Positions 273-37,450 of a stretch of DNA of 64,000 bases are shown piece after piece. The DNA comes from Prorocentrum cordatum (Eukaryota): positions 1 through 64,000 of the forward strand of contig CAUYUJ010000311.1 of assembly GCA_963575745.1 (NCBI GenBank), read 5' to 3'. The position numbers were made by a program, and so were the translations under genes. Numbering within the stretch: the first letter of the stretch is position 1; each line of letters opens with the position of its first letter. Below the pieces are notes generated by a model. It was not told the DNA's origin. It ran no database searches and saw only the letters and a list, made by a program, of their open reading frames with translations.

Positions 273-2452
273 CCTGGACGTCCTTGAGCTTGTCGGCCTT
301 CTTCTGCACCTCCTTGTACAGTCGCCCATCGAGTATGTCGATGCTCATGGCCTTCAAGCGGTCGGTAGCGTCGGCAGTCTTCGTCAGGAGCCACTCCACG
401 TTCGTGGCGTCGTGGTTCAGCCCGATCCTCAGGGTGGCGGCCGAGGCTGCGTCCTCGCCCATCTGCGCGGTGGGGTTGCTGCCGGTGGGGGCCTTCTAGG
501 CTTCTATCATTATTTCTTCCCTCCTCATCCTCCTCCCCCCCGCCTCCCCTTCCCCTCCTCCCCCTCCTCCGCCTCCTCCTCCTCCTCCTCCTCCTTCCCC
601 TCCTCCTCTCCTCCTCCTCTCCTCCTCCTCCTCCTCCCCCTGCTGGGCGCGGGGCGTTGGCCCTGGCCCAGGCGCCGCAAACTTGACCGCTTCCAGCAAC
701 CACAGCCCGAAGTCCTCGTTCGAGAGCTTGAAGCCGCGGTCAGACGTCTTGCCACTTTTGATGTCCAGGAAGGTTGCGAAGATCTGCTTCATCACCGACA
801 CGATCGATTCGTTCGAGATGCTAGCGTTGCCGAACACCACCTCGGCGAGCGCCCACTTGCGGAAGTTCGCCCAGAGATCGAGGTCCTTCTCGAAGTCGGC
901 GAACGTGTTGTTGCAGAAACGGCACTGCTCAAAGTAGTTCATCGACACGATGACCCGCCGCTTGATGAGGTCGGGAAACGTCTTATTGATGAACGCCCAG
1001 GTCCGCTGGCGCAAGCTCTCAGTCGAATCGCGGGTGGCAGCGACGTTCCCCTCGAGATACGCTTCCCAATCGACCTGGACAATTCTGGAATGCTCCATGG
1101 ACTCGAGAAACGTAATCGACTGCTTCTGGTTCCAATCAAAATTCATGAAGTCCTTGAGCCACAGAATCACGCCCTTCGGTGTCTTGAAGGTGAACACCTG
1201 GACCCTCGCCAAACCCTTCTTGAGCCCCGCGACCACGTCAACGTTGCGCGGATTCTTCTCCAGCGCCATGTAGAAAGCCGTTGCGAGATGCGCGCCAGCG
1301 AACAACCTGCACGGCGGCACTTCGCCTTCGCTGAGCTGAGCCATCGGGACCCCGCGGGAATCCCCCGACAGGCCCCACTGGAGGATATTCTCCACCTGCG
1401 TCTTCAGGGTCTGGAGCTGCTCCCTATCGTTGAGCTCATGGCGCTTGAAGTTCGGGCGACCGTCCGCATCGAACCACGGGAGCGTCGTATCGAGGAGCGT
1501 CGGTACCTCGGGAAAAACCAGCCCCTCTCCCCCCTCCCTCATCCCCCCCCTCAGCCCCCAGGAGTCTCCCCCAGCCCCCAGGGGCTGGTGCGATTAACAG
1601 AAACGCGTGGTTTTGCATGGGGCGGCCCAAGTCCAAGATGACCCAGGGCGGCTCGAGGCTCCAAGGGCGCCTCAGAGAGTCCAAGGTGAGTCGCCCTCCT
1701 CCTCCTCCTCATCTCTCCTCCTCCTCCTCCCTCCCTCCTCTCTCTCTCCTCCCCTCCTCCTCCTCCTCCTCCTCCTCCTCCTCCTCCTCCTCCTCCTCCT
1801 CCTCCTCCTCCTCCCCCTCTTCCTCGTTCTCCTCCGCCCCCCCCGCCTCCTGCCGCCTCCTCCTCGCGCCTGCGGGCCTCCAAGTCGTGGGCCTGTGAGG
1901 CCCGAGCCTCCGGCCCCCGAGTGGCCATCCGACTCACCAAACCAACTCCCCTCTTTATCATGCCCGGATCTCCCCGAACACGCTCTTGCACATCTCAAGG
2001 CGGACCACCCCGTGCAGCGTGGGCATGCGTTCATCGATGCTCTCGATCGCGGGGTCGAGAAGCCTCTGAAGGTGATCCTGTTCCACGCCGCGGCTGCTGC
2101 AGCCGTCCATCGATCTCCAGCAGCTAGCAGCGCAGAGTCTTGAAGGGTGGGAGGCTGACAGAATAGGTAGGCGTCGGCGCCGGGCCAGAAGCTGCAGGGA
2201 GCAGGGAGAGCGCGGCGGCCAGAGGCTCTGGGCTCTGAGGGGAACGACGGCGAGGCTCGCTCAGGGCCCAGGGGGGGCGCGAGGAGGGAGACGAGGAGGA
2301 GAGAGTCGGATAGCGGCCGCGAATGCGTTTGGATGGTGAGCTTTTCCATGAATTTGGTCGGACTTCCAGATGCGTCGAGCTCCTGAGCTCGCCCTCCTTT
2401 TCGACGAGCCCCCGGAGCCGTTGGTTTCGGGCCCTTCGGGCCCCAGGACATC
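273..2452 (-). CDS. Multi-exon gene with a putative ParB/Sulfiredoxin-like domain (continues past the left edge; exon limits approximate)
   Basis: Protein-like minus-strand segments at ~2452-2318, ~2190-1965, 1506-~670 and ~492-273, separated by GGA/CCT-rich introns with AG acceptors (ttcccgag|GTA at 1506) and GT/GC donors. The main exon reads RHELNDREQLQTLKTQVENILQWGL..RGVP..CRLFAGAHLATAFY..VQVF..KDFMN..SITFLE, echoing the ParB pattern (SI..G..P..GxxR..A..N..E). The domain call is inference. Confidence 0.55.
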
Positions 2453-3353: not shown

Positions 3354-6300
3354 TCACACAGAACACTCCAACTGATCGACAAACGCAACTGCAAATACCA
3401 TCATTGCTCCAGCAACATTCACGTGCATCGCGTTGCCAACTTGTTTGCAGGTGGCAGCGCGGCTGCGGTCACGGCCGTGGTTAAAAGAACACAAGGGCGC
3501 GCTATGCTGGAGATTCTCCGGCGTCAAGTCGCGCAGCGAGGTGTCGGCAAGCAACGGGAAACCTTGGAGCAACAGGAGCTCGACAGGCATCAACCAGCGG
3601 TGTGCCCACATCGCCCACTCGATATCACAATGACAAGTAATTGTATGCATTAGTTCCTCATCACCATAATGAGCACGACGTGTGGGGTCCTGCGTCAGGT
3701 TCACGACGATGTGTCGTTGGCCTGCTATTCGCTCGTAGCCCTGCAAGAACTCCTCCTCATTGACACTGAGGGCGAGGCGAAACGCACGACCGACATCATC
3801 TGCGCTGGTCTCCGAACTCTGACTGGCAGGACGAGCGCGCGCCCATGCCAGATCCTTGGCAATACAGTCTGGGGTAGCAATCAGGAACTCGTTCCACGAG
3901 CATTGGGGGTCCACCTTCAAGAAACGCAAGTATTCAGACATCTCAATGCGTGGGCGCGCGGTGCCGCGGCGCAGCAGAACAGACCACCTCCGTGGCCGAC
4001 GCACGGGCCACCCAAGCTCCGATGGGCACACCACGAGCGTCATGATATGGTAAACGTCTCCAAGGCATGACTCCAATATCGACGGGTCGAATAAATGGCT
4101 GTTCTCGTGCACAAGAACAGAAGGCATGCCCAACCTCATGAGACACACCCACGCAACGAATGCTTCCACTGTTTTCCCCATGCCGCACTCCCGCTTCCCA
4201 ACTGGAGCCCAATCCACGCATGGGGCCCCTGCGCAGTGGACGCGCCCTGCCCTGTATCTGCAACGCCTCCCGTGCTGCACGCATGGGGCGCGCCCGTCTG
4301 TCGCAGTGGCGGCGCGCCTCCAAAAGCCTGAATCAGTCAATCCGTCCAGCGAGAGCGTGCCTGCATCTCGCTTTTGCTGCAGCATATCACGCGCGTCATC
4401 TGACAGAAATTCAGTGATGTCGGAGAACAAGCATTCAGGCGCACTCGGGTGAATCAAGAGTTCATCCTGGCACTCTGCGTTCAACTCTATGGCAGCCGCG
4501 TGCGCAGGGTGAGCACATGGCCCGCCTGTCGCCAGCTCGACGGCGCGGGCGATCATGCAGAACGCAGTTCCAGGAGCATCGATGCCAGAGAACGCCGTGC
4601 TGTATACCACCTGTGGTAGCTGCTGAGCGAGATGGTCGGTTAGCGATGCTGGCCCGGCCGGCGGCGGCGCCTCCACGCCGCGCACGAGTCGCCGCCGCAA
4701 CTTGCGAGGGCGTCGAGGGCGCAGATGCTCAAAGCAGCTGGCCAACGTGCTCAGCGCCAGTGTAGACCACCCAAACAAGGCTGCCATCCCCGGCGGAAAC
4801 TCGGTTGGGGCCCTTGGGGGGGGATGCGATGGGCACGGCGGCGGCGGCATCGCGTCGCGGCGCGATCGCGCGCGAGGTGGGCGCTCCTCGCCCACGATCC
4901 GCCGCCGCGGTGACCTCGAGGACGGCGGCGACCTCGAGTGCTCGTCGGGCACCCACGCAGGCGGTCGGCCGTCGAGGTCGCTGCGCGCTATGCGCGGCAA
5001 CACAAGGTGCCGACTGCTGCGACCTGTGTCCATCGGCCATGGCCAATCTGGCAAAGTTGCCGGCGACGCTGTCTCTGTTGGGGCAGGGGCCTCCGTCGGA
5101 GGCGACAGCAGCGCTGCCGCGCTGGACGGCGGCACCGCTGCCCCGGAGTCGACGTCGGCCATCAGCGCCGCGCCCATCGCCGCGAGCACAGCAGCGTCTG
5201 CGGCGATGCTTGCGCCATGGCCGCCTTGGGCCATGCGCATGTCACCCTCGCTGGTGGGAGGTGGCTCAGGCTGAGTCTGCTGAGCTGGGGCGGCTGCGGC
5301 TGCGGTGTCCACGGGAGCGGGAGCGGCGGCCGCCGCGGCGGGGTCGCGCGACACCGCCAGCGCAGCGACCGTCGTCGCAGGTATCACCTGGCCTGCGCCG
5401 TCGGCGTCGACGGGCGGATGATCGCTCCCGCGCACGGCGTGCGCCGCGGCGGCTGGCGACCTGGCGGGCGCGTCGGCGCTGGGTGACCACGGAGGCAAAG
5501 TCTCCAGCTCAGCATGGAGCGGACCCGTGGCCAAGTCATGGGCGTCGCCCGCTGTGCTCTGCGGTTGCCCGTCGACAGGACACACAGGGCTCGACGGGGC
5601 CCGGGCCGCGCGCCCAGCGGGCTCCGCAGGGCTCGCTGCGGCAGCGACGGGAGCTGCCTGATGGAGCTGCTCGGCGTCGTCGCGGGCGCGAGGCTGGCTC
5701 GCTTCCGCAAGCGCAGATGCGCAGGCCGAGCCGGTGTCGTGCTGATGACAGCCATCACCCAGAGGAAGCACAGCATCGGTCGCCGCGATAGGAGCAGTCG
5801 CGGCAGAACAGATGATATCGGCGGTGCCGAAGGTGATCCACTTCCCGCGTCTACAGCTCGGGCCGACCTCGATCGCGTTCGCCGCGTCAATCACGGCACA
5901 CGGCGTGAAGATCCAGCAACTGATCCTGGTTGATGCGGAGACGGTGCGACCGGGGTAGACTTGCTGCGCGGCTGACCAGAACGTGGTAGAGGAACCGAGG
6001 TATTCAGTGAAGGCGCCGAAATTCTCTGGAGATAACGAATACGATCCCTCAAATTTTGCTATCCTGCGCGTCTTGTAACTACCGACGGAGGAGACATCAT
6101 CACTGAACAGATATACGTTATCATTAGCAGATAAAAAACGGCATGGTGTTGTCTGCACGACGCCAGTTGTGCGCCCCTCAACCATATCACACAACGTAGA
6201 ACTCGACACAACGAGACCCCGCTGTTTTCCATCAGTCGATACAACGATGGGTGCCTGAGGCATAGTGGCTCGTGTGGCACGCGGCGCAAGTGTGCTGGGG

Positions 6301-6419
6301 CCTAAATGGTTACGGACAGCAGATATGCCATGCGAATGGCCGTCCGTCGCGAGAAGTAGGTAGCAAAACACATGAAGTAGGAGTGCGTTTGGTGGCAGGC
6401 GATTGAAGGAGGCAGCCAT
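3354..6419 (-). CDS. C5-cytosine DNA methyltransferase with N-terminal ASCH/PUA-like domain and Ala/Pro-rich linker (likely start MPQAP near 6263)
   Basis: 1021-aa ORF with the C5-MTase motifs in canonical order: I AFSGIDA (~4590), II AIELN, III FSDITE, IV AGAPCVDW (~4225), VI VHENS (~4100), VIII GWPVRRPRRW, IX RWLMPVELLLLQGFP, X KQVGNAM (~3430). Confidence 0.9.
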   Translation of the reverse strand: MAASFNRLPPNALLLHVFCYLLLATDGHSHGISAVRNHLGPSTLAPRATRATMPQAPIVVSTDGKQRGLVVSSSTLCDMVEGRTTGVVQTTPCRFLSANDNVYLFSDDVSSVGSYKTRRIAKFEGSYSLSPENFGAFTEYLGSSTTFWSAAQQVYPGRTVSASTRISCWIFTPCAVIDAANAIEVGPSCRRGKWITFGTADIICSAATAPIAATDAVLPLGDGCHQHDTGSACASALAEASQPRARDDAEQLHQAAPVAAAASPAEPAGRAARAPSSPVCPVDGQPQSTAGDAHDLATGPLHAELETLPPWSPSADAPARSPAAAAHAVRGSDHPPVDADGAGQVIPATTVAALAVSRDPAAAAAAPAPVDTAAAAAPAQQTQPEPPPTSEGDMRMAQGGHGASIAADAAVLAAMGAALMADVDSGAAVPPSSAAALLSPPTEAPAPTETASPATLPDWPWPMDTGRSSRHLVLPRIARSDLDGRPPAWVPDEHSRSPPSSRSPRRRIVGEERPPRARSRRDAMPPPPCPSHPPPRAPTEFPPGMAALFGWSTLALSTLASCFEHLRPRRPRKLRRRLVRGVEAPPPAGPASLTDHLAQQLPQVVYSTAFSGIDAPGTAFCMIARAVELATGGPCAHPAHAAAIELNAECQDELLIHPSAPECLFSDITEFLSDDARDMLQQKRDAGTLSLDGLTDSGFWRRAATATDGRAPCVQHGRRCRYRAGRVHCAGAPCVDWAPVGKRECGMGKTVEAFVAWVCLMRLGMPSVLVHENSHLFDPSILESCLGDVYHIMTLVVCPSELGWPVRRPRRWSVLLRRGTARPRIEMSEYLRFLKVDPQCSWNEFLIATPDCIAKDLAWARARPASQSSETSADDVGRAFRLALSVNEEEFLQGYERIAGQRHIVVNLTQDPTRRAHYGDEELMHTITCHCDIEWAMWAHRWLMPVELLLLQGFPLLADTSLRDLTPENLQHSAPLCSFNHGRDRSRAATCKQVGNAMHVNVAGAMMVFAVAFVDQLECSV

Positions 6420-6679
6420 CGATGCTTGAAGTAGGAAGGCGCTTAAAGTACGGTAGAATGGGAACCAGAGGCCGTGGGCCTTGGGGTCCAGAAAGACATG
6501 CGTTCAACAAGGAGGAGGAGGGGAAGGGTGAGGAGGAGGAGTGGGAGGAGGAGGAGGAGGAGGAGGAGGAGGAGGAGGAGGAGGAGGAGGAGTTGTAGGA
6601 CCAAAAGGAGTGAGGAGTCGAGCAGGAGGAGGAGGTGGAGGAGGTGGCGGGGGAGGAGGGCGAGGAGAGGGGGAGAAGG

Positions 6680-7262
6680 GGCCCATGAGGGCCCCGATAC
6701 GGTTCCAGGGGCGCCCCGAGACGGCCCCAAGATAGCTCCAACGGGGCACCAAATGTGCCCTGGAGAGCTATATAACCAACGTCTCGACTTATATAGCACC
6801 CCCGGGACCTTTTGGGCACCCCTTGGAGCCCTCTTGGGCCCCTCCAGAGGCATCGGGAAGAGCCCAGGAGAGGGCGCCACATGTGCCCCAGAGTGCTATA
6901 TAACCAACGTCTCGACTTATATAGCCCCCCGGGGTCATTTTGGACAAATCTTGGAGCCCTCTTGGAGCCCTCTTGGGCCCCTCCAGAGGCAGCGGGAAGA
7001 GCCCGGGAGAGGGCGCAATACCCAACGCCTCGACTTATATAGCCACCTGGGATCCTTTTGGGCACCTCTTGGAGCCCTCTTGGAGCCCTCGTGGGCCCAT
7101 CCAGAGGCATCGGGAAGAGCACAGGAGCGGGCGCCACATGTGCCCCAGACAACTGTAGACCCAACGTCTCGACGTATATTGCCCCCTGTGGTCCTTGTGG
7201 GCACCGCTTGGAGCCCTCTTGGAGCCCTCTTGGGCCCCTCTGGATGCATCGGGAGGCGCCCA
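6680..7262. repeat. Degenerate ~120-130 bp tandem repeat (cttggagccctcttgggcccctccagaggcatcgggaagagc...ccaacgtctcgacttatatagc)
   Basis: About four copies visible. The ggagccctcttgggcc core resembles the repeats at 55175-55325 and 62785-64000. Confidence 0.8.
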
Positions 7263-7726
7263 GGGGAGGAGGACGAGGAGCGGCTGAGGAATGCGAGGAG
7301 ATGCTGAGGAGGCCGACGAGGGCCCACCAGACCCACGTCTGGGTGACCCAGAAGCGATCCGCAGCCGCCTCCGCGTGACCCGGATGCGCCCTCCGAGTGA
7401 CTCAGAGTCGCTCCGAAGCTGCCGTGGGGCGATCAAGATGCGCCCCACAGACGTATCCGGGTGACCCAGAGACTGCCCAGGCCCGCATCCGGGTGACCTG
7501 GAGACGAGTCGGACGCTGAGGAGGATGAGGAGGAGGAGGAGCAGGAGGAGGATGACAGATGGTTAGGTACGTGCCAGGAGGAGGACAGATGGCAGGAGGA
7601 GGAGGAGGAGGAGCTGTAATGATCATGAGTACATGTGATATGGGGGAGTGCATGTGCCCGAGCGGCCCGAGCTCTCGCAAGAGGTCACAGGTTCCTCCTC
7701 GTATACGGCTATGATGGCACATCTGC

Positions 7727-11521: not shown

Positions 11522-14500
11522 CTAGGGCAGTGGGGCGAGCAGCATCTGGCACAGCCTGCACACGCTCCCTGAAAACGCATCGGGCAAGACAGCAAGATCA
11601 GGCCGCAACCCCGCACGCGCCGCATCGACAGCAGGGCGACTTGCCATGCCGACGCCTATGGCGCAAAAGCTGTGCCAGGATAGCTGGCACACGCTGCACT
11701 TATCGACGCGGACAAGCCCACTCGAGCTTGGGTCCGTGCGGCTCGTGCCGCAAAAAAAACAATGTGGCGTGAATGGGTCAACGATTGCTCGATCAGTCGC
11801 CGCAAGCGCGGTCTCCCACATCTTCTTCAGTGCACATACATCGTCGTGAACAGGCTCACGACTGTCCCTGGCTTTTGCCATTCTGACCCCAATTGATGGC
11901 AGTACAATGTGATTGACACTGTCGTGCCAGTACATCCCCCCGCTCGGCACATAAGCGGGCTGCCACCGTCCGCCAACAACTTGCAACGTGGTTCCCCTCC
12001 CATACTTCATGTTCGGTTCCTCCCAGTGGATCAGAAGGACGCTCCGATCACCTTCGACTGTGACATCGGCCATAGTCAGGTTGTACGGCGGAGAGGGCCC
12101 ACCGAGTGGGCCACCGAGCTCAGACCGCCTCCACTCCAGTAATCTAGCGCCTTCCGACGCAGACTCTAACCATGCTGCGAGGACGGCTTCGACGTGAGTG
12201 CGGTTGGACATCAGCGCATCGCAGCGATCGATCAGATCGGCGTCATCCTCTGGGCAATCGCGGGACCCTGGCTCTCCGCCAACCTCCGCCTCTGCCTCGC
12301 GCACGGCCGCCGCCAGGTCGGCGTCGGCGAGAAGAACGTCGTGCTGAAGCTCGCAGACGTTCGCGCTGATCCCAGGATCAGCCTGCTGGGATGGGGCGGG
12401 CGCGCGCGCGCCCTCCCCACCGACCCCATTGAGCGTGCGTGCGCCAGAATTTCCAAGCGACCCAGCCGCGGCGACGAGGCATGTGTTCCTACGCTCCAAG
12501 ACGGGCCGGGCTAGACAGAACTTAGGTGACCTAACCCCGCGCAACCTCCGGCTCCGACAGGACCCCGCGAAACGCAAGTTGGTAAATCCCCGGCGGAGCG
12601 AGCTGGATAAGTTCAAAGCGATTCAGCCGCGCGGCGCCTGTCCGATCCAGCCCCCAACCCGCCCAGGGCCCTGAAGGTCCCAGACGGCGACATCCCACGC
12701 TCCAATAGGCGCTACGCAATCACTTTCAGACCCCGCCCCCACAGGGCCCCAAGTAAACAAGACGGCGAGCTCCAGGAACCCAGGGTCAGACCCCCCGGTG
12801 GGCGAGGAATGGGTTTCAGAGCGATCCAGCCGTGGCGACAAGGCAGATGCACTCCAAGAGGCGAGAGACACCTGACCTCCCCCCCCCCCCCCTTCCCCGC
12901 GGCCCCGACAGGGCCCGAAGTCAAGCGCGCAGGTAGGAGGGGGCAACTGCAAATTATTGGAAGAGGGGTGGCCCATGAGAGGCGTCCTCCGTGCCTCCGT
13001 GCGACGGGCGCACTCGGCCTCGATGCTTGCGGCTAGCCCGTCTCGATCGATGGAAGTCCCCAGCCACGCGTCGTCGTCGTCCCCGTCTCCGAGCTCGGCG
13101 TGGAGTCCGAACCCAGGGCTGTGCTGTTGAACAAGTTCGGCCTCGCGAGCATGTGAAGCAGCCTCTCCGAGAGCATCTTGGCTCTTGGTCGCTGCGGCAT
13201 CGTGTTTCATGTCAGACTCATCCAGCAAGCCTTCGTTCCTCAAAGCTTCGGCCAGGCATCGCAGCAGCTCGGCGTCGTAATGGTCCCTAGGCTCCTCATC
13301 ATCATTAGCTGCAGGTTTGTATTCGTCATCATCGGCTTCGGAACCGTCGCCAGCGTCTCCACCGCCCTCGCCGCCACTGCCTCCAGGATCGCCGCCGTCG
13401 CCGTCGTGCTCGGTTCTCATACGCTTCTCGGCCGGACCCTTGTTCTTCTTGGGCTTGACCTCCGGCGGCATGCGCTGCCTGGGGAAACCGCGGGGAGGGG
13501 GCGCTCGCATTGCCGCGGCGCGCCCCTCCAGCAAGGCTGAACCTAAACGGCGTTGGTCGCTTTCGTTTTGTTTTCGGCCCCCCTCGCTTTTGTCTTGAAT
13601 CGGCCTTCGCCGAAAACGAAGTCCAACCGACAGCGGCCCGCAAAATCGCCAGAAACACCGTTTAGGTCCAGACCTGCCCTCCAGTTTCAGCACGTGGCGT
13701 CCTCAGCCTCTCTCCTACCCCCCCCGTCCGCCGGCCCCTCCTCGCTCGCCTCTTTCCTCGCACCCCCGCTCCTTCCTCGCCTCCTTCCTCGCCTCCTCCC
13801 TCCTCAAAACTCAAACCCAAAAACTAGATCATCCACAAGTGGCTCAAGCCTCAATGAGAATACGTGTGCGGCGTCGGTGCACACGCGCAAATACAAGCTG
13901 CTGGTGTACACGTACCCGTCGTCGCCGTCGCCGACGGGCACGGCGTCGCCCTCGGGCGCGGCCACAGCCACCGCGCCCGCTGCGTGATCGGGTTGCTCGC
14001 GGCCGCGAGCATGCCAGGAAACGGTATGTGATGTCACAGGTATCTCGTTGGCATCGCCTCCTGGACCAATAGGGTGGGCCTGCAACAGCTCGTAGTGCTC
14101 CCCCCAAACATCAAAAGAATGCGTGGGGCGCATCGGCAGCTCAAGCCGAGCTTCGAATACATCGCCGACTCGATCGTACACGTCAACGGCCACCATCATG
14201 CCAAGGGAAAAGTTCTTCTCTGCGCATAAGTACCCACGGGACCCCACCTCAACCGCATCCTTGCCAACGAACCAACACCTTGAGAAATCTGGCAACTTAC
14301 AGGAGCGATGCCACAACGTATTGTACGCCTCTCTCCAAAGACAAGCATGAGTCTTCTCTGGTGGGTGAACTGGCGCAGGTAAGATGCGTGAATCATCATA
14401 TGCGGTGCAAGGGTTCCATCTATCAGGGTTGCCAACGACGTGGTTATAGCTGTCCGGGCTGGCGTTAAGGGTTTCATCCAGGAGATCTCTCGCAAACTCT

Positions 14501-17500
14501 TTGATGGCACTGAACTTCAACGACGCCCCTCTTTTTCCGACCCCTAACGCCTTCTTCAATGACGCCCTCGAGGATATCAGCGGGAGAGAAATATTCCTGG
14601 CTCGCTCGCAGTTCACTTTGATCAACGAGTTGACGCCCTCCAGCTCTTGGGTGTCCAGGAGCGTCCACATGGCCATCGCCGCGGCGATGACGTAGACGCC
14701 TCGTGGAGGCACCGATCCATCACGCGCGGCCTGTTCGACATCTGGTCTAAACGCAACCACCACCTTAGCTGTGTTCACATCGAGCTTACCATGTGCTTCC
14801 ATATCCAAGACCATCTGGGCAACTACCCGACGCGCGTCGCAACGGTAGCCGGGCTCCCTGTAAGCAAACCACACCAACTGCAAAGGGAATGTCGCCAGAG
14901 GCTCACTTACCCGCCGGTGGAAGCTGCAGCAGTTATGGCATATCATAAGCGCACCCAGTTCCAGGAAATACTCAGCACCGTCGTCGTCGCACATGGTTAC
15001 CCAGTCGTGATCGCAAAGAGCGCGCGACCAGTCGGTCGCTATGTCCACGCACCGTGAAAACACCAATCTGGCGAGCATCCCCCCGTCAGTTGCAAGATCG
15101 CCAGTCGGCTTCTCGAGGGTTCGCTTAAACCTGTCCAGGGGGGCCGTCGCAACGCAAGCCAGATCCAATGTGCGCCAGAACGCTTTGTCGCGCACCGCTT
15201 TCATAATGTCCTCAGCAGGAGGGGGGGCGGGGCGGGGGGGGAGGAGGAGAACGACGACGACGAGGAGTCGGAGTCGACGAGGACGACGACGAAGGTTGGG
15301 GGAGGAGGAGGATCGGAGAAGAGTGGAGGAGGACGAGGGTAGGAGTCCACGGTATGAGGAGTGGGGGGCAGGAAGAAGGGGCCTGTTTCCACTGGCTGAC
15401 TCTCGCTGAATGCGCCTGCAAGGACTCCACGGCGGGGTCGTCCGCATGGCCGCGACCCTCGGCGGCGTCAGCTGGCCTCCAGGGCCCCAGGCCAGCAGCA
15501 GGGGCAGCGGAACCGACCGGCAAAGGCCAAGACAGATGCGGTCCTGACACCCCTTGGGCCTCGGGGACCCCATCATCGGCCTCGACGGCCAGCGGCGTCG
15601 ATGACAATGATGCGACGATGGGTCCCCCGCGGCCCGCGGCGGGCCAGGAACGCATCTCCCCGGGCTGGGAGCTGTGAGAGCGCGTTGGGAGTCAGTCAGG
15701 AGTCGGAGAGTAGGACAGAGTAGGAGCACAGTAGGACACTCAGTAGGAGTGGAGCGCGGGACCCCAATGGGGCCCCCCCATCTTGTAGAGGAGAAGAGAA
15801 GAGCAAGAGAGAGCGAGAGCGGAGAGAAAGGAGTGCAGCGAAAGCCTGCGGTCTCGACGAGCTGCGGCTGCGCGGGCGCGGCACTGCGGCGTCAGATCGC
15901 ACCTGCAGTTCGCGTGCATGCCAAACGTGGGTTCAACTTGCACCATGCCAGCTTGCTGGAGTAAAATTTGGAATATCCCCACGGATCCCCAGCGGCCGGA
16001 CAGCACCCGTTGTGGCAGATTCTTGACGTGGCGAAGTGCACTCTCTGGACCATTGCAGGACTTCCACGCCTCGAACACAGAACGCGCTCCGTCTCGCCAA
16101 ATCTGGTTGAGTTTGGACAAGCTTGCGTAGTAGTGCCATTTAGGGCGCATGTTGTCAGGAAGCCGGTTGTGCAGGAAATGGTCAGTGCGTTTCAAGAAGT
16201 CGTTATGTATCAATGCATGCCCGTGATGCAGGCAAGAGGTGTCCACCACGATCGTGTTCTGAGAGCCGGCGATGTCCCCCTTCAAGAGCTTCTTGAAGAC
16301 GACCTGACTCGGGCCGAGTCGAGGGGGCGGCCGGCCGCGGCGCCAGGCGGAGGAGGAGGAGGAGGGGGCGGAGGCGGAAGAGGAGGCGAGGCGGAAGGAG
16401 GAGGGGGAGGAGGAGGAGGAGGGGGAGGGAGGGCGAGGGCGGGAAGCGGGCTGGCGGCCACTGGCGGAGGATAAGGAGGGGGGAGGAGGAGGAGCAGGAG
16501 GAGGGAGGAGGAGGAGGAAGCCGAGGGGAGGGGGAAGGGGGGGGTACGGTGGGAGGGTCGGCGGATGGATAAGGTAAGAGGAAGAGGAGTGGAAGACCAA
16601 CGACGACGAGGATGGCCCCGACCTGGTCTGGGCCGCCGTCAGAGACGTAGTTCAGGATTTTCCAATTCACTGCTACCTCAGGGTGCTCGCCAGACGTAGT
16701 CGCTCCCATCTCAGACCACGAAAACCCAACGTTCTCACAAACTTTGCGAACCATGCGGTAGGTGCCCAGTCCAGTGCCGTCAGCTGCAACTTGAAGATCC
16801 AAGATGCGACAGCGTTGGACAGACGAGTCGACCATGCGGTCGCGGATGTGTTCGGAGCCCAGCGCGTGCGAGCCGACGTAGATGCTGTGCAACTCTGTCG
16901 TCATCAGCTTGGACCGGTGCCAGACGCCGCTGTTCGTGGCGTCCGACCTCAGCGTGTGCATTTGTAGGCTGCACACAGTCCTCGCAGCGACACGAGCATC
17001 GGCATCACGAAGTAGTTGCGCCTGATATTCTGCAAGCTGAAGGGCAGCCTCAGCCTCGTTGGCGACGTGGAAGTCCAGAAATGCAGCCTGCAAGCGGGAG
17101 CCGAAGTTGACCTCTGTCCTGCACACCGATTGGTGCGATATGTCTTGCAGGACGACGGCGCCAACAGATGCAGCGGCAACGTTGGCCATGTTCTTCCTCA
17201 TTGCCAGGGCGCCTGCGCCAGGGAGCGTGAGCCGCGTGTCTTTTTTCCCCCGCACGATGTCGAAGCATGGCTCGGCACGGCGGGCGCTGCCAGTGTGCAC
17301 GGCGAGCTGCTTCTCAAGGTCGCCGATGTGCTTTGCGTAGGCCGCCCTAACGGCAGCGGCAGCCAACTTGACGCTCTTGAGTTCGGCCGCGTATGCGTCG
17401 AGCTGAACATCTCGAAACTGAATCGTCGACACGAGCGCCTCCTGAGACATTGAAGCATAATTGCCCTGTAACCTCCGGCGCCTGGCAATCGCATTCCCAC

Positions 17501-17999
17501 TCGATGACGCAGCAACAATAGACGATGGGCTCGCCGTCGACGAAAGCGAATGCGATGGTTCACTCTCAACAACCTGACTGTGGGACGGCGATGGCGGCTG
17601 CGGCCCCTCCAGAGGCAGCGGCGCAGCGGGCAATGGGCGGATCGCACGCGCCCTCTGCTCGCGCCGGTGCGCCAGCTCTGCGCGCCACTGCGCCGCATGC
17701 GCGGCAGAGAACAATCCGCGTGCACACACAGCAGAGGCGATAGCTGGAAACTGATCTGCAAACGCGTAAGTGGCGTCTCGCACCCACTGGGGTTGCAGGC
17801 GCCTGAGAAACGTTGACTGGCAAACCCTGGGCGGCTGACCCGACGCGGCAGCCAAGAGATTGGGCAGCGTTGCACGGTGTATCAAGAGCTCGTCACCATC
17901 GCCGCAACAGATCACGTGCGTCTGCACAGCGAAGCCGATCCGACGGCGTTCAACAGGGCTTAGTATGACTGGCGGCGGCGCCGCCGCCGCTGGGAGCAT
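11522..17999 (-). CDS. Spliced hAT-like DDE transposase with C-terminal PHD finger
   Basis: Exon 1 (17999-16623) has LRSDATN (D1) and YVSDGGPDQ (D2). Exon 2 (from 16303) has SCLHH (CxxH) and GRWGS (cf. hAT TRWNS). The exon from 15210 has DTQELEGVNSLIK (E, cf. ERxFS). An acidic/basic exon lies at ~13480-12920. The last exon has CFFC..CSVC..WHSFC..VCRLC (C4HC3). Introns 16622-16304 (GT-AG) and 15382-15211 (GC-AG) join in frame; other junctions are uncertain. Confidence 0.75.
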
Positions 18000-18021
18000 G
18001 TTGAGCCAAAATGGCTACGGA
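18000..18021 (-). other. Genomic relic of the dinoflagellate spliced leader abutting the transposase ATG
   Basis: Minus strand reads TCCGTAGCCATTTTGGCTCAAC|ATG, against DinoSL DCCGTAGCCATTTTGGCTCAAG: 21/22 identical. Confidence 0.95.
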
Positions 18022-18449
18022 GGAGGATGGGGCCTGGAGCTGTTGGAGTAGGTGGCTGGTGGCTACGCGCGAAGAACCCACCCACCCACCGCTCGACTTC
18101 TAGGGGGGGGCGCTTTAAGGCTCTCAGCCTGAACTCCCGGGCTCACCGAGCCCGAGCGAAGTGACTCCCCTGACCCTGACCCCGACCCCGACCCCCGGAC
18201 CCCCGCCCTCCAAGGGGGTCTGCCGGTCTGCCAGCAACGGCTCTCGTCAGCAACGGCTGCGGGCCTGCTCCTGAGCTCCTGCTGGGGCGCGGTTGTCCCG
18301 GGCCGGCGGCCCGTGGGCTCCAAGTAGGCCGAAATCTGGATTTGGGGAATACAAATCTTGTCTTGTGCCAAAAAAGGGGTCTGCCATATCGTTTGTGCAG
18401 CGTCTCCACTCTCCACCATTCTCCACCAACGCTCCGAATGTTTGTGGCT

Positions 18450-19540
18450 TCCACGAGATGTCTGAAATTTACGGTTTCTGTGTCTGCGACGAAGGGGTAC
18501 GAGGCTCGTAGATCGAGTTTGTACGTTTGCGAGGCTGTCCCAGTCGAAGTGCGGTGTCCTTCGCTTCGCTCCAATGGGCCCCCAGGGCCCAGGCCCCGGG
18601 CCCCAGGGTCTAGGTAGGGCAGCAGCAGGGGGCCAAGGGGACAGGGGACGCGACAGGGCGAGAGGCTCGAGGCGGCGGCGCAGATGTGACGGAACACCCA
18701 TGCTGGTCGGTCGGTTGTCAGCGGTCAGCGGCAATGTCCCAGAAAGCCTCTGCCCGTGCGAATTCTGCTTACCCCCCTGCAAGCAAGCCTCACGATAGCT
18801 CCAAATTCCGATCGCGGCGAGCGCGACCTGGTCCGCGAATCCGACCCAGATCTCCGACGTGCCAGCGCGAGACTCGGGCCCCGGGCCCCAGCCCTGGCCC
18901 GGGCTCGGGGATGAGGGGGGGCCCGGGGCAGGGGGGGAGGAGGAGGAGGAGGGGTAGGAGGAGTCCTCAGGAGGAAGAGAGGAGGAGCGCGGCCGCAAAT
19001 TTGTTTGGATGCTGAGCTTTTCCAGAACAGTTGGTTAACTCAAGATCGCGATCGGGGGAGGCGGTGGAGGAGGAGGAGGCAGGAGGGGGAGGAGAAGGGA
19101 GAAGAGAGGAGGAATGTGGAAACGATGCGCAGGTGAAGCTCACGCGGGGCCACTGTGGCCATCGAGGCGGCCATCGCAAAACGACCCAGCGAACAGAATC
19201 AGAAAAGCGATCGATGGGGTCGAGAGCGCCAGTGGGCCAGGGCCTAGGGGCCCTAGGGCCGAAATCTCGACGTCGGCGAGTCGGATGTCTGGGAGAGGCA
19301 GCGGCGCCGCGTGCGCGTGCACCCTCACGCTCACGAAGTGCCCCAGATCCTCCACCTCCTCCGCCGCGAAGGCCTTGGACACAAAAAACTTCGAAGCCCC
19401 CTCGGCGCTGCTCTCCTCATCCGAATCAATCGAGCCTCTCAAGGGACCCGTCTCCAGCGCGGGCCGCTGCGTCGGCGGCGCGCGCGCGGGAGCGTGGTGC
19501 GCCGCCGCTGCCATCCCTGAAGAAATGGATTGACGGGCGG
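18450..19540 (-). CDS. Probable multi-exon gene or pseudogene of unknown function
   Basis: Protein-like segments ~19530-19250 (SIDSDEESSAEGASKFFVSKAFAAEEVEDLGHFVSVRVH), ~19060-18993, ~18875-18680 (SEIWVGFADQVALAAIGIWSYREACLQ) and ~18580-18460, separated by GC/GGA-rich intron-like tracts. Confidence 0.35.
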
Positions 19541-22509: not shown

Positions 22510-25500
22510 GAGTGAACATTCCCAGCCGCAGGGTTACCACAAGGCGAAGTTCCTGCTGGACGAGAAGCGCCCAGAGCTCTTTGTCAGCACTCCACCCTGC
22601 GGGCCCTGGTCGATAATGCAGAACGTCAACCAGCGCGACGACAGGCAGAGGCAGAACCTTCGCAGGAAGCGCCTCAAGAGCCAGCGGATCTTCGAGAACA
22701 ACAAGAGGCTCATAGAGCACCAGGTGCTCAACCTGAACGGCTCTGCCCTCGCCGAGCAGCCACACAACAGTCGGTCGCGGCAAAAGACCTGCTGGAAGGA
22801 TCTCCACAAGATACTCCCTTACGAGGTGATCGTGGACGGCTGCGCCTGCGGACTGAGAGCTCCCGATACAGGCGAGCTCATGAAGAAGCGCTGGAAGTTT
22901 CTCACTAACGACAAGAGGATCTGGGTGGCCCTACAGCCGCTACAATGCCGTGGAGGACACTACCACGAGGAGATTGAGAGCAGCCTGAGGACTGAGGCTT
23001 CGGGCTACTACCCCAAGATGCTGCGCCGCCGGATCCTCCGAGCTCTGACCAAGAGCCAGAACAAGAACTACTTCGAGGACGAGGTTGCGAAGTGCCTCTG
23101 CATGGCAGCTACCCAGCAGCCACCGACGGAGCCTACGCTTGTGGAGGATGAGCCGTCGATTCCACCTCAAAACGGCAAGGAGACTCACGACCTCACCAAA
23201 GAGACGATCAAGAAGATAGAGAGCTACATCAGGCTGGTGCACACCAACCTTGGACATCTACCCCGAGCTCATCTACTACGATACCTTCGCGACCGTGGTG
23301 CTCGCCCAGAGGTACTACGACTGGCCAGGACATTCAAGTGCGACATCTGCGACGCGCACCGACCACCGACAAAGCGGCCACCAGCCTCATCAGCAGAGCA
23401 GCCACAGAACGGTCACGAGGTTCTCTTCGACGCCTTCTCATGGATCCGTCGCAGCAAGAAGACGAACGTGATGGCGCTGGCGATCCTCGACGCCGGCTCA
23501 GACATCCTCTACGTGCGACTGATCGACGAGAAAGAGATCCCGGGTACGACTCGTCAAGTTCGCGCCGGCGACCTTCGACATATTTTTTGCGACAAAGTGG
23601 TTTCCTTGGATGGGACGCCCGAAGGCCATGCGCTACGATCCCGCTGGCAGCGCCATCTCCAACGAGTTCCGCGAGTGGATCGAGAGCCAGGGAGTCTACT
23701 GTCTTCCATGCGCGGCCGACGCCCACTGGCAGATCGGCAAGATTGAGCGCGCGATCGAAGCTATCAAGGAGGCCCTCGACGCTTTCGACGAGATGGTCTC
23801 AGCTGAAGTGCCTACCAGCGAGATGATTGGACTCCAGACAGCTGCCAGGAGCGACCTGATCAGGATTGACGGATTCAGCCCACTGCAGCGCTATGCTGGA
23901 CGGACCCCGACGGGGACCACGGTTAACTTGTCCGACGAGCCGAACAACCTGCCCCTCATCAGCGCCGAGCTGCAGGATGGCACCTTCAGCAGGGACGCCC
24001 AAGTTCGACGACTGGCGCGGCTGGCTCACATCCAGACCCAGAACTCCGACCGAGTCAAACGGGCGGAGGCCGCGCGCTTCAGGTCCTTCAAAAGGTACGA
24101 GACGGGCGACCTGGTCTTCGTCTACAGGAGGCCCCCACCAGGAGCCTGGATCAAGAAGGGCCAACCTCGCTCCATGCCTGGGCGAGGCCGCTGGTACGGA
24201 CCTGGACGAGTACTCTGCCACGAACCATCGAGCTCGGGACATCGACCTGGTCTACCTGGGACAGTGGTCAACATCACACTGGCTGGACGCCTCTATCGAG
24301 TTGCCCCAGAACAGCTTCGACCTGCTACGCCCTCCGAAGAGGCGATGGACTCTCTACGCTCGCGTCGCGAGCAGCCGGGGACATGGACCTTCGGCGACGC
24401 CCAGAAGCTGCTCGACCAGAACGAGGTGATCGATCTTTCGAACGAGCCCCCGCCTACTGGCGAGGACCTGGCCGCTGACGACGGCGAGTCTGTCAGCGCT
24501 CGCACCTTCAAGGGCAACGCGAGCGGGCCCTGGGCCATTCCTGAAGACGAGGAGCTACCTGTGCCACGAGGAGATCCTCGGAGTTTGGGCCCAGGAGGAG
24601 GAGGCGGAGGTGGTGGAGCCATCGAGGCACCCCCTGGACTGGAAGAGTGACCTCTCCCTGGACCGCGACCTCCAAGGCGACTACGGAAGAAGGGCAATCC
24701 CTGGGCCGAGTCGGCCGAGGTCCAAGACCCTCTCATACAGCCAGCACAGCCAGAAGCACCACCACGCATTCCACAAGAGGAAGGCCACGAAGCTGGACAC
24801 CAAGAAGAAGCCGAGCTACCTGCAGAAGAAGAGATCGCCATGGAGGCCCCTCCCGACGACGACCAAGCAGAGCGTCCGTCTCAGCAACCCATTGCGGTGG
24901 ACACGGACGACGACCTCGACGAGACTACGGCGCCTGACATGAACGACAAGCGCCGGCTGCGGTCGCCTGGCTCGACCGAGCCACCTGCCAAGAAGCAGCG
25001 GATCAACGTCGCGACCCAGAAGGCCTTCTCCTACGACCTGCAGGAAGGCAACTTCTACGGGGACTACGCCTACAGCGTCCAGCAATACGACGAGACGAAG
25101 GAGGACGACGAGCTCATCGTGCTGGACATCCCCGTCAGCAACGAGCACGCGTTCATGGCCTACATGGACAATCCCAGCAATTTCGTGACATCACAGGCCC
25201 GGAAGGGCCGAGTGGAGGTTTCTTTCAAGAAGGCGACGCCTGAGGAAAAGAAGCTGCTACTTGAGGCCCAGCAGAAGGAGCGCACCTCGGTCCTCAGCGC
25301 GAAGGCTGTTAGGATCCTCAGCCGCAAGGGGATCGACCTGGCGCGCCTGCTGCGCTGTCGTTTCGTGCTGACCTGGAAGATGGACGAGCAGGACAACGTG
25401 CTCCGACGCAAGGCCAGATTGGTCGTGCTTGGTTTCAGCGACCCCGATCTACTACACCCACGGACAGAGTCACCAGTTGCCTCAAGACGTGCACGACAAC

Positions 25501-27764: not shown

Positions 27765-28240
27765 CCTCCTCCTCCTCCTCCTCCTCCTCCTCCTCCTCCT
27801 CCTCCTCCTCATCCTCCTCCTATGCCTCCTCCTCCACCTCCACCTCCTCCTCCTCCTCCTCCTCCTCCTCCTCCTCCTCCTCCTCCTCCTCCTCCTCCTC
27901 CTCCCGCTCCAGCACCTCAGCGCCGCCTCCACGCCCCCTCGCTCCTCCTCCTCCTTCTTCTTCTCCCTTTTCTCTTCCTCCTCCTCCGCCGCCTCCCCTG
28001 CTCCGCCTCCACAGCTTCCTCCGCCTCCTCCGCCTCATCCGCCTCCTCCTCCTCATCCTCCTCCTTTGCCTCCTACTCTTCCTCCTCCTCCTCCTCCTCC
28101 TCCTCCTCCTCCTCCTCCTCTCCTCCTCCTCCCTGCGCCTCCTCCTCCTTCTCATCCTCCTCCTCTTCCTCCTCCTCCGCCTGATCCTCCCTCCTCCTCC
28201 TCCTCCTACTCATTCTCCTCGTCCTCCTTCTTCATTCCTT
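27765..28240. repeat. (CCT)n microsatellite
   Basis: Seen directly. Confidence 0.9.
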
Positions 28241-28241
28241 T

Positions 28242-29182: not shown

Positions 29183-29184
29183 AT

Positions 29185-29815
29185 CCCCCTCCCCCTCCTC
29201 CTCCTCCTCCTCTTCCTCCTCCTCCTCCTCTCCCCATCATCCCTCCTCCCTCCTCCTCATCCTCCTCCTCCTCCCTCCTCCTCCTCCCCCTCCCTCCCTC
29301 AACGCTCCTCTTCCGTCCTCCCTCCTCCCTATTTCTTCCTCCCCCTCCTTCCCTCCCTCCCTCCCTCCCTCCCTTTTCCTCCCTCCTCCGCCTTCCTCCT
29401 CCTCCCTCTTCCACCTCCTCCCTCCTCCCTCCCTCCTCCTCTCCTCCCTCCTCCTCCTCCTCCCCTCCTCCTCCTCCTCCTCCTCCTCCTCCTCCTCCTC
29501 CTCCTCCTCCTCCCTCCTCCTCCTCCTCCTCCTCCTCCTCCTCCTCCTCCTCCTCCTCCCTCCTCCTCCTCCTCCTCCTCCTCCTCCTCCTCCTCTCCTC
29601 CCCTCCTCCTCCTCCTCCTCCTCCTCCTCCTCCTCCTCCTCCTCCTCCTCCTCCTCCTCCTCCTCCTCCTCCTCCTCCTCCTCCTCCTCCTCCTCCTCCT
29701 CCTCCTCCTCCTCCTCCTCCTCCTCCTCCTCCTCCTCCTCCTCCTCCTCCTCCTCCTCCTCCTCCTCCTCCTCCTCCTCCTCCTCCTCCTCCTCCTCCTC
29801 CTCCTCCTCCTCCTC
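29185..29815. repeat. (CCT)n microsatellite, perfect over roughly the last 210 bp
   Basis: Seen directly. Confidence 0.95.
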
Positions 29816-37189: not shown

Positions 37190-37230
<41 letters not shown>

Positions 37231-37417
37231 GCATCAGCATCAGCATCAGCATCATCATCATCATCATCATCATCGACATACTCATCATCCCTATCATCAT
37301 CATAATCATCAACAACGTCATCATCGTCAGCAGCAGCATCATCATTATCATCACCATCACCATCACCATCATCACCATCACCATCATCATCACCATCACA
37401 AGCATCATCATGATCAT

Positions 37418-37450
<33 letters not shown>

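What the first reader, a model, noticed from the sequence alone, without database searches (positions are those of the whole stretch)
3354..6263. ASCH/PUA-like reader domain fused to an apparently intact C5 methyltransferase
Seen: the N-terminal ~130 aa (RGLVV..DMVEGRTTGVV..NVYLF..AKFEGSYSLSPENF..CWIF..GKWITF, ~6225-5830) follow the ASCH pattern GL.i..i..G.Kt.e.R..iyl..yaW.l..G..W, though the GxKxxExR signature is degenerate (GRTTGVVQ). The catalytic PC is intact and motif VI is ENS rather than ENV. The ORF is uninterrupted while its neighbours are spliced. Established: PUA-like folds (ASCH, EVE, SRA) include modified-base readers, and dinoflagellate DNA is rich in 5-hydroxymethyluracil. Inference: a reader-writer that could couple an existing modification to 5mC deposition.
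Basis: partly seen in the sequence, partly recalled or inferred. Interest (0 to 1): 0.72.

Follow-up and report, generated by a model that had tools for sequence, protein, structure and literature searches.

The report
Divergent cytosine methyltransferase with orphan N-terminal module
This is one long uninterrupted gene for an unusual but apparently working DNA cytosine methyltransferase; whether its extra front part is a modified-base "reader" domain remains possible but unproven.

Summary
Residues 545-1021 are a divergent C5 DNA methyltransferase. Motifs IV (PC), VI (ENS), VIII (RRPRRW), IX (QGFP) and X (GNAMHV) are intact. It belongs to a small, patchy family: P0002/P0008, P0003, P0005, P0006 and about 9 metagenome loci. 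The family profile matches M.HhaI best (E 3.6e-6).

The ASCH reading of residues 67-203 is only indirectly supported:
- Pfam, PHROGs, NCBIfam, PDB sequences and an exhaustive phmmer over 1.84 billion proteins give nothing.
- An ASCH HMM and hhalign built here give no signal.
- One family member, P0003, has the same layout. The ESM Atlas model of its first 150 residues matches ASCH clusters (TM 0.63/0.71).
- Our module aligns colinearly with P0003's (score 46; 17 and 41 of 5000 shuffles reach it).
- The frame has 0 stops where the other five frames have 2-13.

Verdict: methyltransferase confirmed, fusion probable, PUA-like fold about 40% likely, reader-writer function unshown. No transcript data were available.

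The parts
3354..6419 (-). Whole open reading frame, 1021 codons from the first ATG (6419) to the stop (3354-3356).
   Evidence: The first codons (6403-6419) overlap a high-copy dispersed repeat, so M53 or a later Met is the more likely start (inference).
5811..6221 (-). N-terminal globular-looking module, aa 67-203, the proposed ASCH/PUA-like domain. An orphan by sequence.
   Evidence: 0 in-frame stops against 2-13 in the other frames. No family or homolog found. Weak colinear similarity to the N-module of P0003. AlphaFold pLDDT 41.9 and 31.7.
4788..5774 (-). Ala/Pro-rich low-complexity linker, about aa 216-544 (A 23%, P 17%, 74% GC), with Arg-rich stretches near its end.
   Evidence: Several other frames are also open here, one with 0 stops, so openness alone is weak evidence of coding. 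No Pfam family.
3357..4787 (-). C5 cytosine DNA methyltransferase module, aa 545-1021. It starts at the in-frame Met of MAALFGW, which aligns with the start MFGW of P0005.
   Evidence: P0002 E 7e-55 and P0003 E 3e-41; P0005 and P0006; alignments; family profile against M.HhaI 3.6e-6; phrog_116 'DNA methyltransferase' 7.4e-7.
4569..4598 (-). Motif I variant TAFSGIDAPG (SAM-binding loop). The second Gly of FxGxG is Asp.
   Evidence: Invariant in window/P0002/P0003 and in P0005 and P0006. Coordinates.
4209..4232 (-). Motif IV AGAPCVDW with the catalytic Cys734.
   Evidence: Aligned to CAGFPCQAFS of M.HhaI through the family profile. Coordinates.
4098..4109 (-). Motif VI HENS (Glu772 kept; Ser in place of the usual Val).
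3984..4001 (-). Motif VIII RRPRRW (the R-x-R).
   Evidence: Aligned to PQKRERIY of M.HhaI. Coordinates.
3555..3581 (-). Motif IX ELLLLQGFP.
3420..3443 (-). Motif X QVGNAMHV.

Best explanation
An intronless gene encodes a divergent, bacterial-type (closest solved relative M.HhaI) C5 DNA cytosine methyltransferase of a small, patchily distributed protist family. In this copy the enzyme is preceded in the same frame by a globular module of about 140 residues and a linker of about 330 Ala/Pro-rich residues.

Shown: the methyltransferase module is homologous to C5 methyltransferases and keeps the catalytic Cys, the motif VI Glu, the motif VIII arginines and motifs IX and X.

Probable: the N-module is translated as part of the same protein.

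Inferred: the N-module is a highly diverged relative of the ASCH-like N-module of family member P0003. It would act as a nucleic-acid-binding targeting domain that tethers the enzyme, through the flexible linker, to particular DNA, possibly modified or single-stranded. The enzyme would then flip out and methylate cytosines nearby. Which ligand it binds, if any, is unknown.
For: - Methyltransferase: homologs at E 7e-55 and 3e-41 and 2.5e-93 and 3.3e-88 with the family profile.
- P0002 passes the Pfam PF00145 cut-off (27.5 against 22 bits) and P0003 just passes (22.2).
- The family profile hits M.HhaI at 3.6e-6 across motifs IV-VIII.
- Our own sequence hits phrog_116 'DNA methyltransferase' at 7.4e-7.
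- All listed motifs are present.
- Coding of the N-module: 0 stops in 163 codons at 55% GC against 2, 13, 4, 3, 10 in the other frames. It is in the same frame as the methyltransferase across an open linker.
- Architecture: P0003 (753 aa, one ORF) has the same N-module / Ser-Ala-Pro linker / methyltransferase layout.
- ASCH link: in the ESM Atlas model of P0003 residues 1-150, the row that meets the tool's naming bar for ASCH has TM 0.63/0.71. Another row meets the bar for DUF365. Most of the 10 rows name ASCH or DUF365. The feature search scores 0.94.
- Our N-module against P0003's: a local alignment spans aa 67-202 against 1-144, score 46, z 3.5. It is reached by 3 of 500, 17 of 5000 and 41 of 5000 shuffles.
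- Secondary-structure order in both low-confidence models (helix, strands, two helices, strand) is compatible with ASCH. The ASCH topology used for this comparison is recalled, not tested.
Against: - No sequence method sees ASCH or any family in our N-module: Pfam, PHROGs and NCBIfam, PDB sequences.
- phmmer over 1.84 billion proteins gave 1 hit, a 13-repeat protein judged spurious.
- The ASCH HMM, hhalign and Smith-Waterman built here give no signal for it, nor for P0003's module.
- BLASTP and tblastn do not align the two N-modules.
- The ESM feature search for our module is weak: best 0.86, with an ASCH cluster only at rank 30 at 0.83.
- The Lys and Arg of the G-x-K-x-x-x-x-R stretch seen in the ASCH set are Thr and Gln here (GRTTGVVQT).
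- In the family tree our enzyme pairs with P0006 and lies far from P0003.
- P0005, P0006 and P0008 show no such module. Of the 9 metagenome loci, none matches either N-module at E<1 by tblastn, and the two with near-full-length matches, L001 and L005, show none in their upstream ORF sequence. Some of these models may be truncated.
- The linker is open in other frames too, one with 0 stops.
- In-frame Met524 and Met545 would give a P0005-sized enzyme.
Confidence: 0.4

Rival explanations
1. Only the methyltransferase is made. Translation starts at Met524 or Met545, giving an enzyme of about 480-500 residues like P0005. The upstream 520-540 codons are untranslated leader, a decayed remnant, or an open frame kept by GC-rich composition. 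On this view the ASCH-like pattern is a chance resemblance.
For: - MAALFGW (M545) aligns with the start MFGW of P0005, and P0006 starts about 30 residues before motif I.
- The linker is 74% GC and open in other frames, one with 0 stops.
- The closest relatives lack the module.
- All sequence and fold tests of the module are negative or uninformative.
Against: - The N-module at 55% GC has 0 stops against a mean of 6.4 in the other five frames.
- It lies in the methyltransferase frame.
- P0003 shows that a long N-module plus linker plus this methyltransferase exists as one ORF elsewhere.
- The similarity to P0003's N-module is reached by 17 and 41 of 5000 shuffles.
Confidence: 0.3
2. The fusion is real, but the N-module is not a PUA-like reader. 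It is a lineage-specific domain of another fold, or a protein-interaction or localisation module. The similarity to P0003's module is chance or convergence.
For: - No ASCH signal at sequence level.
- The conserved Lys and Arg are missing.
- The weak structural hits of the poor model are to unrelated folds.
- N-terminal regions in this family vary freely: P0008 has a repeat-rich one.
Against: The colinear alignment to P0003's ASCH-like module. The models used for fold search were too poor to exclude anything.
Confidence: 0.2
3. The gene is a silent passenger of a mobile element or of a laterally acquired (viral or bacterial) segment, not a host chromatin gene. This does not exclude the other readings.
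For: - It is intronless, bacterial-type, and has a patchy distribution.
- In Symbiodinium more than 90% of DNMT genes are intronless, sit in retrotransposons and are mostly silent (PMC5890265, passages).
- High-copy repeats abut the 5' end.
- A copia reverse transcriptase lies 18 kb away.
- Unchecked notes of this scan report several DNMT-carrying elements elsewhere in this genome.
Against: - No reverse transcriptase, integrase or transposase in 1-23000 on either strand: the 23 ORFs and the 74 gave nothing there.
- No long terminal or inverted repeats apart from simple GGA/TCC tracts.
- No relatives in IMG/VR.
- GC content resembles the surroundings.
Confidence: 0.2

Closest known systems
M.HhaI and other bacterial type II C5 cytosine methyltransferases (Pfam PF00145; PDB 10mh and others)
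   Same: Best solved match of the family profile (E 3.6e-6, motifs IV-VIII aligned). The catalytic PC, the ENx Glu, RxR, QGFP and GNxM motifs are all present.
   Different: Very divergent: our sequence alone scores 13.8 bits against the 22-bit Pfam cut-off. Motif I reads FSGIDAPG, not FxGxG. There is a spacer of about 110 residues between motifs I and IV. It is eukaryote-like in composition and context, and carries a 540-residue N-terminal extension.
Dinoflagellate DNMTs described by de Mendoza et al. 2018 (PMC5890265; passages read): exon-rich Dnmt5/Dnmt6/Dnmt2, and intronless SymbioLINE-Dnmt and SymbioDIRS-Dnmt3
   Same: The paper says most Symbiodinium DNMTs carry no additional known domain.
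   Different: No reverse transcriptase or tyrosine recombinase ORF next to it. I could not place it in their classes because no reference sequences were to hand, and their three text supplements hold no FSGIDAPG motif. Their Supplementary Fig. 1 on domain architectures was not seen.
ASCH domains fused to or encoded beside N6-adenine methyltransferases in bacteria (Iyer, Zhang and Aravind 2015, PMC4738411; passages read)
   Same: The same idea: a PUA-like ASCH module, predicted to bind modified bases, joined to a DNA methyltransferase.
   Different: Those are adenine methyltransferases in prokaryotes. Here the enzyme is a C5 cytosine methyltransferase in a eukaryote-like genome, and ASCH membership of the module is not demonstrated.
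PUA-superfamily (SRA, EVE, YTH, ASCH-type) reader plus nuclease fusions, the modification-dependent restriction enzymes (Lutz et al. 2019, PMC6765204; EcoSal Plus 2025, PMC12707154; passages read)
   Same: An N-terminal reader followed by a C-terminal catalytic domain. One structural neighbour of P0003's module in the Atlas is the non-HNH part of an HNH endonuclease cluster.
   Different: The catalytic partner there is a nuclease that destroys modified DNA. Here it would be a writer.
E. coli YqfB (ASCH; N4-acetylcytidine amidohydrolase; L010:13313-13624)
   Same: Similar size. P0003's RTLNDMLRHGKSVLIRD is picked as the best local match to RFQDDILAGRKTITIRD of a YqfB-like protein.
   Different: That match is not significant (z 1.0). 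Our module has GRTTGVVQT there, without the Lys and Arg. No evidence for hydrolase activity.

Membership tests
C5 cytosine DNA methyltransferase (PF00145) | Recognised by family profiles or by homology to proven members | tested here: met
   Alone, it is below the Pfam cut-off (10.4 and 13.8 against 22 bits) and below the TIGR00675 cut-off (16.9 against 100.65). It does hit phrog_116 'DNA methyltransferase' at 7.4e-7. Relatives P0002 (27.5 bits) and P0003 (22.2 bits) pass Pfam. The family profile hits M.HhaI at 3.6e-6.
C5 cytosine DNA methyltransferase (PF00145) | Motif IV Pro-Cys with the catalytic cysteine | tested here: met
   AGAPCVDW, Cys734, aligned to GFPCQAFS of M.HhaI through the profile.
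C5 cytosine DNA methyltransferase (PF00145) | Motif VI E-N-V glutamate | tested here: met
   HENS. Glu and Asn are kept. Val to Ser is shared with P0002, P0005 and P0006.
C5 cytosine DNA methyltransferase (PF00145) | Motif I F-x-G-x-G SAM loop | tested here: inconclusive
   FSGIDAPG: the second Gly is Asp. This is invariant in all five family proteins aligned, so it is probably a working variant, but cofactor binding is untested.
C5 cytosine DNA methyltransferase (PF00145) | Motifs VIII (R-x-R), IX and X | tested here: met
   RRPRRW, ELLLLQGFP, QVGNAMHV.
C5 cytosine DNA methyltransferase (PF00145) | Methyl transfer to cytosine C5 in DNA | not testable with these tools
   Needs expression and methylation mapping.
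ASCH (PF04266) / PUA-like superfamily | Match to the family profile | tested here: not met
   Pfam reports 0 families at E<=10. In an HMM of 13 ASCH domains built here, the module is not among the best 20 of 402 sequences, all 20 being shuffles. Subfamily HMMs rank it 194 of 317 and 111 of 303. hhalign probability 0.4%.
ASCH (PF04266) / PUA-like superfamily | Conserved G-x-K ... R stretch after helix 1 | tested here: not met
   The ASCH set shows AGRKTITIRD, GRKTVELR and GIKTASC. Ours has EGRTTGVVQT, with Thr at the Lys position and Gln at the Arg position. P0003 has HGKSVLIRD.
ASCH (PF04266) / PUA-like superfamily | Predicted PUA-like pseudo-barrel fold | tested here: inconclusive
ASCH (PF04266) / PUA-like superfamily | Homology to a protein with an ASCH-like structure | tested here: inconclusive
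   The Atlas model of P0003's N-module matches ASCH clusters at TM 0.63/0.71. Ours aligns to it with score 46, reached by 17 and 41 of 5000 shuffles, but BLASTP and tblastn miss it.
SymbioLINE-Dnmt / SymbioDIRS-Dnmt3 (retrotransposon-borne DNMTs) | DNMT ORF joined to, or directly upstream of, a reverse transcriptase ORF (and a tyrosine recombinase for DIRS) | tested here: not met
   No RT, recombinase or integrase domain in 1-23000 on either strand. The only RT (RVT_2, 24651-27080) is on the other strand, 18 kb away.
Eukaryotic DNMT1/DNMT3/DNMT5/DNMT6 classes | Phylogenetic placement with reference members and class-specific accessory domains (BAH, RFTS, PWWP, SNF2) | not tested
   No reference sequences of these classes were to hand. 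Pfam finds no accessory domain. The family profile's 14 PDB hits are M.HhaI variants, a Dnmt2, a chain titled only cytosine-specific methyltransferase (3g7u) and M.HaeIII.

The most novel reading that the evidence does not exclude
A small protist family of bacterial-type C5 methyltransferases ancestrally carried an ASCH-like modified-base reader at its N-terminus. That module survives, strongly diverged, in this gene and in P0003. This would be an ASCH-guided cytosine methyltransferase, an architecture I did not find described.
Probability: 0.15. Interest if true: 0.7.

Novelty: new variant of a known kind. Interest (0 to 1): 0.4.

Why it matters
Dinoflagellate-type genomes are heavily CG-methylated and rich in 5-hydroxymethyluracil. 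Published surveys stress that their DNMTs lack chromatin or targeting domains (PMC5890265 and PMC9998398, passages read). A DNMT with a built-in nucleic-acid reader would give a concrete, testable handle on how methylation is targeted or maintained there. It would also extend the known ASCH-methyltransferase association from bacterial adenine methylases to a eukaryotic cytosine methylase. If the N-module turns out not to be translated or not PUA-like, what remains is one more member of a rare, divergent DNMT family, which is of modest interest.

Tried and rejected
- Expression: the look-up of sequencing runs listed 4 runs, with no RNA holder listed. Laying the 4 runs gave only short DNA contigs identical to parts of the stretch, plus high-depth repeats at 6403-6450 and 6680-6752. 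Large parts had no cover. Nothing can be said on transcripts or variation.
- No whole genome is held for the window, so copy number and paralogs could not be examined.
- Homologs of the N-module were not found anywhere:
  - exhaustive phmmer gave 1 spurious repeat protein;
  - IMG/VR scans with our module and with P0003's module found none;
  - tblastn of both against the 9 metagenome loci and the window gave nothing at E<1 except self;
  - the word-index search with P0003's module had 46 candidates, none at E<=10;
  - Pfam on P0003's module reported 0 families.
- P0002's short N-terminus looked partly alignable to P0003's by eye. It was rejected: z 0.45, and the longer cluster member P0008 has a repeat-rich N-terminus instead.
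- Adding P0003 to the AlphaFold alignment made the model worse. MAFFT and Smith-Waterman disagree on the middle of that alignment.
- The fold searches used only the first, poor model and are not evidence against any fold.
- The inverted (TCC)n/(GGA)n tracts at 1700-1860 and 6510-6670 were considered as transposon ends. I rejected this because the same simple repeats recur at 498-650, 7478-7620, 15219-15298, 16310-16510 and 18885-18964.
- The DNMT family in IMG/VR: 38 pattern matches, none a relative.
- Literature: no paper holds ASCH + dinoflagellate + methyltransferase. Of the 10 papers holding ASCH + 5-methylcytosine + DNA methyltransferase + fused, I read passages of three, and none describes an ASCH-C5-methyltransferase fusion.
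- A genome search with a W handle as centre returned an error. I then obtained a G handle in the way the error message advised.
Full report
THE OBSERVATION

The window holds an uninterrupted minus-strand ORF from the ATG at 6419 to the stop at 3354-3356, 1021 codons. The stop-to-stop frame reaches 6503.

The ORF has three compositional parts:
- aa 53-215: 55% GC, mixed composition.
- aa 216-544: 74% GC, 23% Ala and 17% Pro.
- aa 545-1021: 60% GC.

THE METHYLTRANSFERASE HALF

Pfam sees it only below threshold: PF00145 at 10.4 bits for the whole protein and 13.8 bits for the last 448 residues, against a cut-off of 22. A phmmer search against PDB sequences finds nothing. Homology is nevertheless clear:
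- A search with residues 575-1021 found P0002 (E 7e-55, 33% identity over 92%) and P0003 (E 3e-41, 29%).
- A profile of the three found P0005 (2.5e-93) and P0006 (3.3e-88). P0006 is a EukProt record labelled Pyramimonas sp. CCMP1952.
- P0002 passes the Pfam cut-off (27.5 bits) and P0003 just passes (22.2).
- The family profile matches M.HhaI at 3.6e-6 over motifs IV to VIII. The other PDB hits are a Dnmt2, a chain titled only cytosine-specific methyltransferase (3g7u), and M.HaeIII: 14 distinct sequences at E<=1, 11 of them HhaI variants.
- Our own sequence hits phrog_116 'DNA methyltransferase' at 7.4e-7.

The motifs are TAFSGIDAPG (I), AIELN (II-like), AGAPCVDW (IV), HENS (VI), RRPRRW (VIII), ELLLLQGFP (IX) and QVGNAMHV (X). 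The Asp at the second Gly position of motif I and the Ser in ENS are family traits, not defects of this copy.

A metagenome scan gave 9 further loci, several apparently with introns. IMG/VR gave none. The enzyme half is therefore confirmed as an apparently intact member of a rare, patchily distributed, bacterial-type C5 methyltransferase family. I could not place it among the named eukaryotic DNMT classes.

IS THE N-TERMINAL PART CODING AND PART OF THE SAME PROTEIN?

In aa 53-215 the ORF frame has 0 stops in 163 codons. The other five frames have 2, 13, 4, 3 and 10. By a Poisson estimate from their mean of 6.4, the chance of 0 stops is about 0.002. This is my arithmetic.

The linker is less telling. 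Its other frames have 3, 5, 2, 6 and 0 stops.

Two in-frame methionines, M524 and M545, precede the conserved region. M545 (MAALFGW) aligns with the start (MFGW) of P0005, so a short enzyme is a live alternative.

The first codons of the long ORF overlap a high-copy repeat at 6403-6450. That makes M1 an unlikely start.

P0003 is a single 753-residue ORF with the same three-part layout. This shows that such fusions exist in the family.

No transcript data could be obtained (see Tried and rejected).

IS THE N-MODULE ASCH/PUA-LIKE?

Direct tests were negative or uninformative:
- Pfam, PHROGs and NCBIfam report no family at E<=10.
- PDB sequences give one noise hit at E 1.8.
- An exhaustive phmmer over 1.84 billion representatives gave one hit. 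It is a 2183-residue protein matched through 13 repeats, which I judge spurious.
- To imitate an HHpred test I collected 13 ASCH domains from bacterial genomes. PF04266 matched in 14 of 121 genomes sampled.
- An HMM of these 13 ranks our module and P0003's no better than their shuffles. The best 20 of 402 were all shuffles, and subfamily HMMs behave the same way.
- hhalign of the two-sequence alignment against the ASCH alignment gives probability 0.4%, P 0.16. The aligned stretch is, for what it is worth, the colinear helix-1/strand-2 region.
- Pairwise Smith-Waterman gives z<=1.5.
- AlphaFold gave pLDDT 41.9 (single sequence) and 31.7 (with P0003).
- The Lys and Arg of the ASCH G-x-K...R stretch are absent: GRTTGVVQT here, against AGRKTITIRD in YqfB-like proteins.

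Indirect support comes from P0003:
- The ESM Atlas holds P0003. The first 150 residues of its model have ASCH clusters as nearest structural neighbours. The row that meets the tool's naming bar for ASCH has TM 0.63 by query and 0.71 by target, and another row meets it for DUF365. Most of the 10 rows name ASCH or DUF365. The feature search scores 0.94.
- Our module aligns with P0003's over almost its whole length, aa 67-202 against 1-144. Conserved anchors include G-hVh...TL.DMh, F/W-E/D-G-S-x-S/T-L and V.P...R.G.W..F...D.
- The alignment score is 46, z 3.5. It is reached by 3 of 500, 17 of 5000 and 41 of 5000 shuffles. Among 527 open 163-residue decoys cut from the window's six frames, 3 reach it; that decoy set includes pieces of this ORF itself.
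- The ESM feature search with our module is weak: 0.86 at best, with an ASCH cluster at rank 30.

Against shared ancestry, the methyltransferase tree puts our enzyme with P0006 and puts P0003 on the far side of the family (7 rows, no starred branches, long branches). P0005, P0006 and P0008 show no such module. None of the 9 metagenome loci matches either N-module by tblastn at E<1, and the two near-full-length loci, L001 and L005, show none in their upstream ORF sequence. Some of these models may be truncated.

I put the chance that the module has a PUA-like fold at about 0.4.

CONTEXT

No other ORF in 1-23000 has a Pfam match. One search scanned 23 large ORFs across the window. One search scanned 74 of the 94 ORFs of at least 110 codons. 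The 20 left out were 11 that overlap this gene and 9 already scanned.

The only mobile-element domain found is a copia-type reverse transcriptase at 24651-27080 on the plus strand. There are no LTRs or true terminal inverted repeats around the gene, only simple GGA/TCC tracts that recur across the region. So it is not a SymbioLINE/SymbioDIRS-type element as described by de Mendoza et al. (PMC5890265, passages).

Notes of this scan on other windows of the same genome (unchecked by me) report several DNMT-carrying mobile elements. They disagree on whether the organism is a dinoflagellate or a green alga. I did not establish the organism.

COMPARISON WITH THE LITERATURE

- ASCH domains are predicted binders of modified bases. 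In bacteria they are fused to, or encoded beside, N6-adenine methyltransferases (PMC4738411, passages).
- PUA-superfamily domains act as modification sensors in type IV restriction enzymes (PMC6765204 and PMC12707154, passages).
- Surveys say that dinoflagellate DNMTs mostly lack extra domains (PMC5890265; PMC9998398).
- I found no description of an ASCH-C5-methyltransferase fusion in the searches. Figures and the bioRxiv and figure supplements of these papers were not seen and could list such an architecture.

VERDICT

- The methyltransferase is real and looks active (confidence about 0.95).
- The long fused ORF is probably a real protein (about 0.65).
- The ASCH-like nature of its N-module is possible but unproven (about 0.4).

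It is best filed as a new variant of a known kind: a divergent C5 methyltransferase with an orphan, possibly PUA-like, N-terminal module.

Noticed in passing
window 1700-1860 and 6510-6670: Long (TCC)n and (GGA)n tracts in inverted orientation (up to 148 nt, 72-91% complementary) bracket a 4.7-kb segment holding the gene. Similar tracts recur at 498-650, 7478-7620, 15219-15298, 16310-16510 and 18885-18964, so they are probably microsatellites rather than element ends.
   Followed up: partly
window 6403-6450 and 6680-6752: Short stretches with very high contig depth (about 100-200 in run X1) that continue into unrelated sequence on either side. This is a dispersed high-copy repeat abutting the 5' end of the ORF.
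   Followed up: no
window 6744-7269: Tandem array of units of about 118-139 bp (3-4 copies, 65-85% identity) just upstream of the gene.
   Followed up: no
window 11525-19034, minus strand: A chain of six abutting long open frames (366, 359, 695, 303, 603 and 323 codons) in shifting frames, all without Pfam matches. It could be a large decayed or spliced gene upstream of the methyltransferase, or a GC-rich artefact.
   Followed up: partly
window 24651-27080, plus strand: Copia-type reverse transcriptase (RVT_2, E 3.3e-21) inside an 810-codon open frame.
   Followed up: no
window 36000-46000, 28001-30000 and 50001-52000: Extreme strand composition: GC skew down to -0.73 at 40001-42000, -0.46 at 28001-30000 and +0.47 at 50001-52000. 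GC falls to 43-49% in places, and many frames are open on both strands. This suggests long strand-biased simple or satellite repeats.
   Followed up: no
window 46276-46375: A run of 100 N, an assembly gap.
   Followed up: no
P0003 residues 1-150 (ENA-derived protein, 3281-nt contig): The N-terminus of this distant family member has ASCH clusters as nearest structural neighbours of its ESM Atlas model, yet no Pfam, PHROGs or word-index hit. It appears to be an ASCH-like domain invisible to sequence profiles, fused to a C5 methyltransferase.
   Followed up: partly
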